A stretch of DNA of 64,000 nt. Origin: the human T2T-CHM13v2.0 reference genome, Homo sapiens. The notes under the pieces are model-generated. The model made no database searches, had not been told where the DNA came from, and saw only the letters and a list, made by a program, of their open reading frames with translations. The stretch lies in NCBI RefSeq assembly GCF_009914755.1, contig NC_060937.1; one strand, written 5' to 3'. The translations under genes and the position numbers were made by a program. Of this stretch, positions 8,568-14,598 are shown piece by piece; position 1 is the stretch's first letter; each line of letters starts with the position of its first letter.

Positions 8568-9498
8568 GTTTTTCTCGTCTGTTTTTTTCCCCATCTTTGT
8601 GGTTTTATCTACTTTTGGTCTTTGATGATGGTGATGTACAGATGGGTTTTTGGTGTGGATGTCCTTTCTGTTTGTTAGTTTTCCTTCTAACAGACAGGAC
8701 CCTCAGCTGCAGGTCTGTTGGAATACCCTGCTGTGTGAGGTGTCAGTGTGCCCCTGCTGGGGGGTGCCTCCCAGTTAGGCTGCTCGGGGGTCAGGGGTCA
8801 GGGACCCACTTGAGGAGGCAGTCTGCCCATTCTCAGATCTCCAGCTGCGTGCTGGGAGAACCACTGCTCTCTTCAAAGCTGTCAGACAGGGACATTTAAG
8901 TCTGCAGAGGTTACTGCTGTCTTTTTGTTTGTCTGTGCCCTGCCCCGAGAGGTGGAACCTACAGAGGCAGGCAGGCCTCCTTGAGCTGTGGTGGGCTCCA
9001 CCCAGTTCCAGCTTCCTGGCTGCTTTGTTTACCTAAGCAAGCCTGGGCAATGGCGGGCGCCCCTCCCCCAGCCTCACTGCCGCCTTGCAGTTTGATCTCA
9101 GACTGCTGTGCTAGCAATCAGCGAGACTCCGTGGGCGTAGGACCCTCCGAGCCAGGTGCGGGATATAATCTCGTGCTGTGCCGTTTTTTAAGCCCAATGG
9201 AAAAGCGCAGTATTTGGGTGGGAGTGACCCGATTTTCCAGGTGCCGTCAGTCACCCCTTTCTTTGACTAGGAAAGGGAACTCCCTGACCCCTTGCACTTC
9301 CCGAGTGAGGCAATGCCTCACCCTGCTTCGGCTCGCGCATGGTGCATGCACCCACTGACCTGCGCCCACTGTCTGGCACTCCCTAGTGAGATGAGCCCGG
9401 TACCTCAGATGGAAATGCAGAAATCACCCATCTTCTGCGTCGCTTTCGCTGGGAGCTGTAGACAGGAGCTGTTCCTATTCGGCCATCTTGGCTCCTCC
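8568..9498 (-). promoter_or_regulatory. Inverted L1 5'UTR: sense promoter on minus strand, antisense promoter on plus strand
   Basis: Reverse complement from 9498 reads GGAGGAGCCAAGATGGCCG (L1 5' terminus, intact YY1 site 9480-9490) through to the ORF1 ATG at 8594-8592; CpG-rich. Confidence 0.93.
9050..9358 (+). CDS. ORF0: L1 ORF0, C-terminally extended variant (102 aa)
   Basis: MAGAPPPASLPPCSLISDCCASNQRDSVGVGPSEPG...VGVTRFSRC matches primate L1 ORF0; internal donors CAG|GT at 9155/9156 and 9240/9241; expression unknown. Confidence 0.8.
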   Translation: MAGAPPPASLPPCSLISDCCASNQRDSVGVGPSEPGAGYNLVLCRFLSPMEKRSIWVGVTRFSRCRQSPLSLTRKGNSLTPCTSRVRQCLTLLRLAHGACTH

Positions 9499-9749
9499 GA
9501 AAAACTGGAAACTCTAAAAAGCAGAGCGCCTCTCCTCCTCCAAAGGAACGCAGTTCCTCACCAGCAACGGAACAAAGCTGGGGGGAGAATGACTTTGACG
9601 AGCTGAGAGAAGAAGGCTTCAGATGATCAAATTACTCTGAGCTACGGGAGGACATTCAAACCAAGGGCAAAGAAGTTGAAAACTTTGAAAAAAATTTAGA
9701 AGAATGTATAACTAGAATAACCAATACAGAGAAGTGCTTAAAGGAGCTG

Positions 9750-10496
9750 ATGAAGCTGAAAACCAAGGCTCGAGAACTACGTGAAGAATGCAGAAGCCTC
9801 AGGAGCCGATGTGATCAACTGGAAGAAAGGGTATCAGCAATGGAAGATGAAATGAATGAAATGAAGCGAGAAGGGAAGTTTAGAGAAAAAAGAATAAAAA
9901 GAAATGAGCAAACCCTCCAAGAAATATGGGACTATGTGAAAAGACCAAATCTACATCTGATTGGTGTACCTGAAAGTGATGGGGAGAATGGAACCAAGTT
10001 GGAAAACACTCTGCAGGATATTATCCATGAGAACTTCCCCAATCTAGCAAGGCAGGCCAACGTTCAGATTCAGGAAATACAGAGAACGCCACAAAGATAC
10101 TCCTCGAGAAGAGCAACTCCAAGACAGATAATTGCCAGATTCACCAAAGTTGAAATGAAGGAAAAAATGTTAAGGGCAGCAAGAGAGAAAGATCGGGTTA
10201 CCCTCAAAGGGAAGCCCATCAGACTAACAGCAGATCTCTCGGCAGAAACCCTACAAGCCAGAAGAGAGTGGGGGCCAATATTCAACATTCTTAAAGAAAA
10301 GGATTTTCAACCCAGAATTTCATATCCAGCCAAACTAAGCTTCATAAGTGAAGGAGAAATAAAATACTTTACAGACAAGCAAATGCTGAGAGATTTTGTC
10401 ACCAGCAGGCCTGACCTAAAAGAGCTCCTGAAGGAAGCGCTAAACATGGAAAGGAACAACCAGTACCAGCCGCTGCAAAATCATGCCAAAATGTAA
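9750..10496 (+). CDS. ORF1: L1 ORF1p, N-terminally truncated open remainder (248 aa); native ORF1 disrupted
   Basis: Coiled-coil/RRM/CTD sequence (...EIWDYVKRPNL...YPAKLS...QNHAKM); native ATG carried into the inverted segment and in-frame TGA at 9624-9626. Confidence 0.85.
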   Translation: MKLKTKARELREECRSLRSRCDQLEERVSAMEDEMNEMKREGKFREKRIKRNEQTLQEIWDYVKRPNLHLIGVPESDGENGTKLENTLQDIIHENFPNLARQANVQIQEIQRTPQRYSSRRATPRQIIARFTKVEMKEKMLRAAREKDRVTLKGKPIRLTADLSAETLQARREWGPIFNILKEKDFQPRISYPAKLSFISEGEIKYFTDKQMLRDFVTSRPDLKELLKEALNMERNNQYQPLQNHAKM

Positions 10497-13800: not shown

Positions 13801-14375
13801 TTTATGCAGCCAAAAGACACATGAAAAAATGCTCATCATCACTGGCCATCAGAGAAATGCAAATCAAAACCACAATGAGATACCATCTCACACCAGTTAG
13901 AATGGCAATCATTAAAAAGTCAGGAAACAACAGGTGCTGGAGAGGATGTGGAGAAATAGGAACACTTTTACACTGTTGGTGGGACTGTAAACTAGTTCAA
14001 CCATTGTGGAAGTCAGTGTGGCGATTCCTCAGGGATCTAGAACTAGAAATACCATTTGACCCAGCCATCCCATTACTGGGTATATACCCAAAGGACTATA
14101 AATCATGTTGTTGTAAAGACACATGCACACGTATGTTTATTGTGGCATTATTCACAATAGCAAAGACTTGGAACCAACCCAAATGTCCAACAATGATAGA
14201 CTGGATTAAGAAAATGTGGCACATATACACTATGGAATACTATGCAGCCATAAAAAATGATGAGTTCATGTCCTTTGTAGGGACATGGATGAAATTGGAA
14301 ATCATCATTCTCAGTAAACTATCACAAGAACAAAAAACCAAACACCGCATATTCTCACTCATAGGTGGGAATTGA
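10848..14375 (+). CDS. ORF2: L1 ORF2p open frame, 1175 aa (partial endonuclease, reverse transcriptase, Cys-rich C-terminus)
   Basis: GDFN, SDH, PIP-box [25 protein letters not shown] and CWWDC motifs present; lacks the first ~98 residues. Confidence 0.93.
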
Positions 14376-14598
14376 ACAATGAGATCACGTGGACACAGGA
14401 AGGGGAACATCACACTCTGGGGACTGTTGTGGGGTGGGGGGAGGGGGGAGGGATAGCATTGGGAGATATACCTAATGCTAAATGACAAGTTAATGGGTGC
14501 AGGACACCAGCATGGCCCATGTATACATATGTAAATAACCTGCACAATGTGCACATGTACCCTAAAACTTAAAGTATAATAATAAAAGAAAAGAAAAA

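What the first reader, a model, noticed from the sequence alone, without database searches (positions are those of the whole stretch)
8568..14598. Rewired L1: antisense promoter and ORF0 now upstream of a 1175-aa endonuclease-truncated RT frame
Seen: after the flip, the antisense promoter, ORF0 (ATG 9050) and its two donors (9155/6, 9240/1) lie on the same strand as, and upstream of, ORF1/ORF2 and the native polyA signal. ORF1 is broken (ATG removed, TGA 9624). All frame-disrupting lesions I can see in ORF2 sit in its first ~290 nt, leaving 3.5 kb open with PIP box, FADD and CWWDC. Established: the L1 antisense promoter is active, ORF0 donors splice to downstream acceptors, and EN-deficient ORF2p can retain RT activity. 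Inference: this could be an ORF1-less, EN-dead RT or ORF0-ORF2 fusion transcription unit, a source of cDNA rather than a mobile element. Caveats: RQG>RHG in the RT motif, a 2-aa deletion (DKSTAILNG) and IVY>IVC may impair RT, and a long open frame in a young L1 can persist by chance.
Basis: partly seen in the sequence, partly recalled or inferred. Interest (0 to 1): 0.8.

Follow-up and report, generated by a model that had tools for sequence, protein, structure and literature searches.

The report
Twin-primed L1 with flipped promoter
This is an ordinary decaying copy of the human L1 jumping gene whose front end was built in backwards when it inserted, and its long open reading frame is what chance leaves in copies of this age.

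Summary
The sequence description holds. Window 8568-9498 is a reverse-complemented L1 5'UTR with the first 26 nt of ORF1. Window 9499-14598 is the same L1 in sense from ORF1 nt 20 to a short A-tail. A 12-nt target-site duplication (AAAAGTCAAAAA) brackets the whole, and the minus strand carries a TTTT/AA endonuclease site.

The antisense promoter region and ORF0 (ATG 9050) do face the L1 body. ORF1 has no ATG and an in-frame TGA. ORF2 carries two frameshifting deletions in its first 290 nt and is then open for 1175 codons from Met99.

The open frame is not special. Two of the 10 nearest genomic relatives have stop-free stretches at least as long. The 48 private substitutions split 19 synonymous to 29 non-synonymous, no different from the relatives (p=0.43). 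The chance of no new stop is about 0.07-0.16.

An antisense-promoter transcript would carry 37 upstream ATGs and 19 internal poly(A) hexamers. The RT carries Q659H, Y707C and a private 2-aa deletion beside template-guiding I642. No daughter copy carries the junction.

Function as an RT source is unsupported, though expression could not be tested here. Low interest.

The parts
8556..8567 (+). Left copy of the target-site duplication AAAAGTCAAAAA. On the minus strand the nick site reads TTTT/AA (between 8556 and 8555).
   Evidence: (D7)
8568..9498 (-). Inverted arm: L1 5'UTR from its usual 5' terminus, plus the ORF1 ATG (reverse complement at 8592-8594) and ORF1 nt 1-26. The L1 sense promoter now points leftwards into the flank.
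9050..9358 (+). ORF0 frame (ATG 9050, 102 codons here) on the antisense strand of the flipped 5'UTR. It faces the L1 body.
   Evidence: ORF0 start near L1 nt 451
9156..9157 (+).
   Evidence: identity as a used donor not verified here
9241..9242 (+).
   Evidence: identity as a used donor not verified here
9498..9499 (+). Inversion junction: L1 5' terminus (reverse complement) joined to ORF1 nt 20. ORF1 nt 20-26 (GAAAAAC) are present in both arms.
9499..10496 (+). ORF1 remnant without its start codon. In-frame TGA at 9624-9626, native stop at 10494-10496. Trimerisation, RBD-like and dsRBD-like domains are recognisable.
10560..10847 (+). Broken start of ORF2 (first part of the endonuclease domain). 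Private deletions of 2 nt near 10630 and 4 nt near 10833, with in-frame stops from 10713 to 10811.
10848..14375 (+). Open 1175-codon frame equal to ORF2p residues 99-1275: rear part of EN, tower, RT (D600, FADD kept; Q659H, Y707C), wrist and CTD with CWWDC. Private in-frame 6-nt deletion near 12469.
14581..14598 (+). Native AATAAA (14581-14586) and a short interrupted A-tail.
14599..14610 (+). Right copy of the target-site duplication AAAAGTCAAAAA.
   Evidence: (D7)

Best explanation
A single L1 RNA of the L1PA2-like age class integrated here by twin priming. One cDNA was primed on the poly(A) tail from the minus-strand nick (TTTT/AA) and ran up to ORF1 nt 20. A second cDNA was primed from the plus-strand end inside ORF1 (first copied base = C26) and ran to the 5' end of the RNA. 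Joining the two left the 5'UTR and ORF1 start inverted in front of the rest of the element, all inside one target-site duplication.

The copy was dead on arrival as a retrotransposon, because its sense promoter and ORF1 start codon point away from the body. It has since decayed neutrally. The 1175-codon ORF2 frame is open because no stop has yet hit it by chance.

The antisense promoter may give some plus-strand RNA across the body, but no product with a function is expected.

Shown: the anatomy, the duplication, the nick site, the divergence and the frame statistics. Inferred: the order of priming events and neutrality.
For: Twin-priming hallmarks:
- Two pieces of one L1 lie in opposite orientation, abutting with a 7-nt overlap at ORF1 nt 20-26.
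- A 12-nt duplication flanks the composite.
- The minus strand carries TTTT/AA at the left edge of the duplication.
- An A-tail and AATAAA lie at the right end.
- The published definition of twin priming fits these features (passages).

Recurrence. An independent older element on chr11 has the same build inside its own 13-nt duplication, so the architecture recurs by mechanism.

Age class:
- ORF2 is 97.2-97.6% identical to the 10 nearest copies, with 53 private substitutions in 3816 nt.
- The copy lacks the 129-nt 5'UTR block that two older copies carry.

Chance and neutrality:
- 2 of 10 relatives have stop-free ORF2 stretches of 1175 aa or more.
- Private substitutions are 19 synonymous to 29 non-synonymous, against 122 to 238 in the relatives (Fisher p=0.43).
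- New stops make up 14 of 374 private substitutions in the relatives. By my arithmetic P(no stop in 48) is about 0.16. Enumeration gives 0.07-0.15.

Other points:
- No other locus of 90% identity or more spans the junction: 40 of 4465 and 40 of 1295 candidates were scored.
- The 6-nt RT deletion is absent from the 39 other scored copies.
Against: - The private non-synonymous to synonymous ratio (1.53) is lower than a naive neutral expectation of 2.4-3.6 (binomial p=0.052). However, the relatives are shifted the same way (1.95).
- RefSeq lists two 'enhancer' features over the arm (hub annotation), so the flipped 5'UTR may have regulatory activity in some assay.
- EN-less ORF2p core is a strong RT, and truncated ORF2 variants can keep RT activity, so the frame is not excluded as an enzyme.
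- A crude scan finds an acceptor-like site (exon start 11014) that would join ORF0 donor 1 in frame to 1120 ORF2 codons.
- I had no expression, methylation or ape-orthologue data.
Confidence: 0.85

Rival explanations
1. The flipped antisense promoter drives a plus-strand transcript across the body. This yields either an ORF1-less, endonuclease-dead reverse transcriptase from ATG 10848 or an ORF0-ORF2 fusion by splicing, which acts as a cellular source of cDNA.
For: - The promoter region, the ORF0 ATG and two GT donors are intact and face the body.
- L1PA2-8 antisense promoters are active at the same place as in L1HS.
- An L1PA2 antisense promoter drives LINC01876.
- ORF2p 238-1061 is highly active without EN.
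- Monocistronic and truncated ORF2 mRNAs with variable RT activity are reported in brain.
- D600, F605 and FADD are kept.
- Donor 1 joined to an acceptor-like site at 11014 would be in frame.
- A validated L1 acceptor (SpIRE 97/976) lies just behind the junction.
Against: - 37 ATGs lie between the ORF0 ATG and ATG 10848, and 19 AATAAA/ATTAAA hexamers precede the native one.
- By my frame arithmetic from the coordinates, neither ORF0 donor joins the AG at 9544-5 in the ORF1 frame. Donor 2 joined to the CAG acceptor at 9554 is in frame but gives only 87 aa in all, ending at the TGA at 9624.
- Q659H lies in the RxG stretch before CPLSP, Y707C behind FADD, and a private 2-aa deletion beside template-guiding I642.
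- Some full-length ORF2 variants with intact RT domains lack RT activity.
- There is no signal of selection beyond that seen in the relatives.
- The arm has 27 CpG, at the low end of the 26-38 seen in 5 comparators.
- No annotated transcript lies here (hub table).
Confidence: 0.07
2. A normally oriented full-length L1 inserted first, and its first 930 nt were inverted later by a genomic rearrangement.
For: This would give the same gross picture of a flipped 5'UTR.
Against: - One breakpoint would have to fall exactly at the border of the target-site duplication.
- The rearrangement would have to duplicate 7 nt of ORF1.
- No inverted repeats that could mediate it flank the segment: the 23 inverted pairs include none at 8568 and 9498.
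- A second element on chr11 shows the same build.
Confidence: 0.03
3. The composite is a 5'-truncated retrocopy of a read-through RNA from a head-to-head nested L1 locus like the one on chr5, so the junction was inherited rather than made here.
For: A chr5 locus has the L1 5' terminus abutting ORF1 nt 20 at the same nucleotide, through nested insertion into an older L1.
Against: - The left end of the arm (ORF1 nt 26) lies within 7 nt of the start of the body (nt 20). Twin priming predicts this, whereas random 5' truncation would give it only rarely.
- The chr5 copy is only 87-95% identical, so it cannot be the source.
- No closer junction-bearing locus exists in this assembly.
Confidence: 0.03

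Closest known systems
5'-inverted L1 insertions made by twin priming (Ostertag and Kazazian 2001, recalled; defined in passages of PMC2837659 and PMC2912911)
   Same: Two segments of one L1 lie in opposite orientation inside one target-site duplication. There is an EN-type nick site and a 3' A-tail. The inverted part is the sequence lying just 5' of the sense part.
   Different: The inversion point lies unusually far 5' (ORF1 nt 20-26) and the inverted cDNA reached the RNA 5' end, so the whole 5'UTR is flipped and all of ORF2 stays in sense. The junction shows a 7-nt overlap rather than the internal deletion stressed in PMC2837659.
L1 antisense-promoter / ORF0 chimeric transcripts (PMC4908685 passages; LINC01876 in PMC10619931 passages)
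   Same: The same promoter region, ORF0 ATG and GT donors are present, in an L1PA2-like copy.
   Different: In the known cases the promoter reads out into flanking host DNA and splices to host exons. Here it would read into the element's own ORF1/ORF2. No transcript is documented for this locus.
Monocistronic and truncated ORF2 mRNA variants of human brain (PMC12179785, abstract and sections 35 and 37)
   Same: An ORF1-less ORF2 coding potential with many amino-acid variants, and the idea of RT activity without retrotransposition.
   Different: The 12 variants assayed there kept the EN domain and were truncated at the C-terminus. This frame lacks the first 98 residues of EN. No link to this locus was found.
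ORF2p core, residues 238-1061 (PMC10830420, abstract and passages)
   Same: It shows that the RT works without EN.
   Different: The core is an engineered construct of the reference sequence. The frame here carries 29 private amino-acid changes and a 2-aa deletion.

Membership tests
Twin-primed (5'-inverted) L1 insertion | Two fragments of the same L1 in opposite orientation, the inverted one being the 5' neighbour of the sense one | tested here: met
   Arm = L1 5' terminus to ORF1 nt 26 (reverse complement). Body = ORF1 nt 20 to A-tail.
Twin-primed (5'-inverted) L1 insertion | Target-site duplication bounding the whole composite | tested here: met
   AAAAGTCAAAAA at 8556-8567 and 14599-14610 (D7).
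Twin-primed (5'-inverted) L1 insertion | L1 endonuclease-type nick site and 3' poly(A) | tested here: met
   Minus strand TTTT/AA at 8556/8555. A-tail at 14584-14598.
Twin-primed (5'-inverted) L1 insertion | Small deletion or duplication, and microhomology, at the junctions | tested here: inconclusive
   7-nt duplication at the inversion junction. Only 1 nt of possible microhomology (A8567 / ORF1 T27) at the priming site.
L1PA2-like age class | 5'UTR without the 129-nt block of older L1PA subfamilies; about 1-2% private divergence | tested here: met
   The block is absent here and present in two older copies (block named). 53 private substitutions in 3816 nt. No RepeatMasker call was available. 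The 3'UTR diagnostic triplet is recalled only.
Retrotransposition-competent L1 | Sense promoter upstream of intact ORF1 and intact ORF2 | tested here: not met
   The promoter is inverted. ORF1 lacks its ATG and has a TGA. ORF2 has two frameshifts.
Expressed ORF2-only RT unit | Same-strand promoter, documented transcript, catalytically sound RT | tested here: inconclusive
   Promoter geometry is met. Transcript evidence is not testable here. RT: D600 and FADD are kept, but Q659H, Y707C and a 2-aa deletion beside I642 are present.

The most novel reading that the evidence does not exclude
Full-length L1s whose 5'UTR was flipped by twin priming near the ORF1 start form a small class. In this class the antisense promoter, not the sense promoter, feeds the L1 body. 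Such copies would escape catalogues of 'full-length' L1s and could supply ORF1-less ORF2 mRNAs and endonuclease-free RT in cells where L1 promoters are unmethylated. This copy would be one such source. Two independent events (here and on chr11) started the inverted cDNA at the same ORF1 nucleotide, which hints at a preferred internal priming site in the A-rich ORF1 start.
Probability: 0.05. Interest if true: 0.55.

Novelty: new member of a known kind. Interest (0 to 1): 0.17.

Why it matters
As it stands it matters little. It is one more twin-primed L1 pseudogene in a gene desert, and it shows that a long open ORF2 in an L1PA2-age copy needs no functional explanation.

It has some methodological value. 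Repeat annotation splits such elements into a short antisense 5'UTR piece and a 5.1-kb sense piece. Surveys of full-length or ORF2-intact L1 loci may therefore miss them, although they keep a promoter facing an almost complete ORF2.

If junction-spanning transcripts were found, the unique 9498/9499 junction would make this a cleanly mappable reporter of antisense-promoter activity reading into L1 coding sequence.

Tried and rejected
- Ostertag and Kazazian 2001 (PMC311219) is not held. Twin priming is therefore cited from passages of PMC2837659 and PMC2912911. Denli et al. 2015 was not read.
- Hot-spot idea. The junction-spanning search first suggested three loci with one junction.
  - On inspection chr5 is a nested insertion of L1(-) into an older L1(+), with the host repeat GAAAAGCTGAAAA on both sides.
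  - A chr3 hit is a normal L1 with a chance flank.
  - Only chr11 is a true parallel. With one parallel, and a search designed to find this junction, I do not claim a hot spot.
- Locus-level expression. I looked in the held supplements of PMC10619931 (1 file, no hit) and PMC13221650. All 16 hits there were a chr10 element. The number prefix came from an hg38 position that I derived from recalled DAOA coordinates. These tables list only elements annotated as full-length, so the blank is uninformative.
- Literature. Searches for twin priming together with antisense promoter (22 papers, 28 papers) were read as listings only, apart from passages of PMC7947781, PMC5860796, PMC4859970, PMC2837659, PMC10619931 and PMC2912911. 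Neither the listings nor these passages describe an antisense promoter driving the body of a 5'-inverted L1. This is not proof that none exists.
- Q659, R658 and N64x are not mentioned in the main text of PMC10830420. Its supplements were not opened.
- No structure prediction, complex prediction or large protein search was run, because the protein is 96-97% identical to solved ORF2p. No ape genome, RNA or methylation data were available.
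Full report
ANATOMY

The stretch 8556-14610 is one L1 insertion.
- Window 8568-9498 is the reverse complement of an L1 5'UTR together with the ORF1 start codon (reverse complement at 8592-8594) and ORF1 nt 1-26.
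- It aligns over its full 931-932 nt with the 5'UTRs of five ordinary L1 copies at 94.2-95.2% identity.
- It ends at the usual L1 5' terminus...GGCTCCTCC, the reverse complement of GGAGGAGCC....
- From 9499 the same element runs in sense from ORF1 nt 20 through ORF1, the inter-ORF spacer, ORF2 and the 3'UTR, to AATAAA at 14581-14586 and a short interrupted A-tail ending at 14598.
- ORF1 nt 20-26 (GAAAAAC) occur in both pieces.
- Pfam finds the three ORF1p domains, RVT_1 (E=1.7e-46) and partial Exo_endo_phos matches.
- The 1175-aa frame aligns without interruption to residues 99-1275 of solved human ORF2p, 8uw3 chain A.

ORIGIN

The composite is bracketed by a 12-nt direct repeat, AAAAGTCAAAAA, at 8556-8567 and 14599-14610 (family D7). 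At the left edge the minus strand reads TTTT/AA, the preferred L1 endonuclease site (motif as given in passages of PMC2837659).

The features found are these:
- two inverted fragments of one L1 inside one target-site duplication;
- a 3' A-tail;
- an inverted part that is the immediate 5' neighbour of the sense part.

These are the published hallmarks of twin priming (passages of PMC2837659 and PMC2912911; the original paper is not held). The second cDNA began at ORF1 C26 (G8568), with at most 1 nt of microhomology, and reached the RNA 5' end. The first cDNA stopped at nt 20.

A later genomic inversion would need a breakpoint exactly at the border of the duplication plus a 7-nt duplication, and one search shows no mediating inverted repeats. 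I rate it at 0.03.

OTHER LOCI

A 401-nt query across the junction found two other spanning loci among 40 scored of 4465 candidates.
- The chr11 locus (84% identical, older, with the 129-nt 5'UTR block) has the same build. Its arm runs from ORF1 nt ~28 to near the 5' terminus and its body from ORF1 nt ~12 to the A-tail, all inside its own 13-nt duplication AAAGCAACAATCA. It is an independent twin-priming event that started at the same C.
- The chr5 locus is different. A full-length L1(-), plus a 3-kb L1(-), sits nested in an older L1(+), with the host sequence GAAAAGCTGAAAA repeated on both sides.
- A shorter 140-nt query (40 scored of 1295 candidates) again found only chr11. A chr3 match that ran 20 nt past the junction is a normal L1 with a chance flank.

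No locus of 90% identity or more carries the junction, so the element has left no daughters in this assembly.

AGE

One search scored 40 of 13,226 candidates with the ORF2 region as query and returned 30 loci. One is the window itself. I used the 10 that cover the whole query and dropped the 19 partial ones.
- Pairwise identity to the 10 is 97.17-97.56%, with 93-108 substitutions.
- Where at least 8 of the 10 agree, the window differs at 53 positions in 3816 nt (1.4%). The same count for the relatives is 29-50.
- The window also has three private deletions: 2 nt near 10630, 4 nt near 10833 and 6 nt near 12469.
- The 6-nt deletion is absent from all 39 other scored copies.
- The copy lacks the 129-nt 5'UTR block present in the two older loci. 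The SpIRE paper calls this block a 129-bp L1PA4 sequence absent from L1RP.

Together this points to the L1PA2 (to late L1PA3) age class. An L1PA2 shared by human, chimpanzee, bonobo and gorilla is put at 10-20 Myr in PMC10619931. The 3'UTR diagnostic triplet that I read as L1PA2-like is recalled, not tested.

IS THE OPEN FRAME MORE THAN CHANCE?

No.
- The longest stop-free ORF2 stretches in the 10 relatives are 1275, 1190, 991, 991, 954, 925, 862, 811, 791 and 752 aa. Two of 10 therefore reach 1175, against 1187 stop-to-stop here.
- Of the 48 private substitutions inside 10848-14372, 19 are synonymous and 29 are not.
- The relatives pooled give 122 synonymous, 238 non-synonymous and 14 new stops. 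The Fisher test of window against relatives gives p=0.43.
- Against a naive codon-table expectation (27.8% synonymous) the window gives p=0.052. The relatives are shifted the same way, as expected if part of the 'private' changes arose in active lineages or at CpGs.
- With 3.7% of substitutions making stops in the relatives, P(no stop in 48) is about 0.16 by my arithmetic. Enumeration over the frame gives 0.07-0.15.
- The two frameshifts sum to 6 nt, so the frame returns. That is a roughly one-in-three event for two frameshifts.

COULD IT WORK AS PROPOSED?

Geometry: yes.
- ORF0's ATG (9050) maps to L1 nt ~452, matching the ORF0 start near nt 451 in PMC10619931.
- Antisense transcription starts within the first 600 nt of the 5'UTR in L1HS and L1PA2-8.
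- ORF0 is open for 102 codons here, against 71, 100 and 29 in the three of five comparators where my start motif was found.

The obstacles are these:
- An unspliced transcript would carry 37 ATGs before ATG 10848 and 19 AATAAA/ATTAAA hexamers before the native signal.
- A validated L1 acceptor (SpIRE 97/976) lies just behind the junction. Joining ORF0 donor 2 to the CAG at 9553 is in frame but gives 87 aa in all, ending at the TGA at 9624.
- A crude scan (YAG with at least 14 of 22 upstream pyrimidines) finds 6 acceptor-like sites. Donor 1 joined to exon start 11014 would give a 1155-aa fusion. Nothing shows that it is used.
- The RT keeps D600, F605 and FADD but has Q659H, Y707C, P637S and a deletion of two residues in A639-N-I-I-L643. 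PMC10830420 names palm I642 as one of three adaptations guiding the template (legend passage).
- That Q659 corresponds to the conserved motif-B glutamine of other RTs is my inference from recalled alignments.

Points in favour: ORF2p 238-1061 is highly active. Truncated ORF2 variants can keep RT activity, although some full-length variants with intact RT domains have none.

COMPARISON WITH WHAT IS KNOWN

The element is a member of the known class of twin-primed L1s. Its only unusual trait is that the inversion point lies at the very start of ORF1 and the inverted cDNA is complete, so promoter and body are cleanly separated.

The listings of two literature searches (and 28 papers) and passages of six papers gave no description of an antisense promoter reading into the body of such an element. 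ORF1-less ORF2 mRNAs as such are in print (PMC12179785).

LIMITS

I had no RNA, methylation, population or ape data. The subfamily call was not made by RepeatMasker. The sample of relatives is small and biased towards well-preserved copies. Supplement look-ups for locus-level expression were uninformative.

Noticed in passing
L011 (G000:C11:29177000-29186999), about 3628-9670, minus strand: An older L1 with the same build as the finding. The inverted 5'UTR plus ORF1 nt 1-28 is joined, with 4 filler bases, to the body from ORF1 nt ~12. The whole lies inside a 13-nt duplication AAAGCAACAATCA. The inverted cDNA starts at the same ORF1 C as in the window.
   Followed up: partly
L009/L010 (G000:C5:176817000-176835999): A nested locus. 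An older L1(+) is split at ORF1 nt ~20-32 (GAAAAGCTGAAAA on both sides) by a 3-kb L1(-) and a full-length L1(-). The 5' terminus of the full-length L1(-) therefore abuts ORF1 nt 20 at the same nucleotide as the junction in the window. This mimics a twin-priming junction, and the A-rich ORF1 start may be a favoured L1 target.
   Followed up: partly
window 10630 and 10833: The two frameshifting deletions (2 nt and 4 nt) sum to 6 nt, so ORF2 returns to its original frame after 203 nt. The middle piece still reads as endonuclease sequence in another frame (77-aa ORF 10615-10848, Exo_endo_phos E=1.2e-05).
   Followed up: yes
window 9050-9358: The ORF0 frame is 102 codons here instead of about 71. 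One of five comparison copies has a similar 100-codon version, so the longer reading is a recurrent variant, not unique to this locus.
   Followed up: partly
window 8568-9498, minus strand: The L1 sense promoter, with its YY1-site sequence (cggccatcttgg at 9480-9491), now fires leftwards. It would give a minus-strand RNA of 5'UTR plus 8 ORF1 codons running into unique flank, where no gene is annotated within 100 kb. RefSeq lists two 'enhancer' features (8390-8930, 8913-9653) over this arm.
   Followed up: no
L051 (G000:C3:58881047-58884133): A normal full-length L1 whose non-L1 flank happens to resemble the first 20 nt after the junction. This is a reminder that short extensions past a repeat border in such searches can be chance.
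   Followed up: yes
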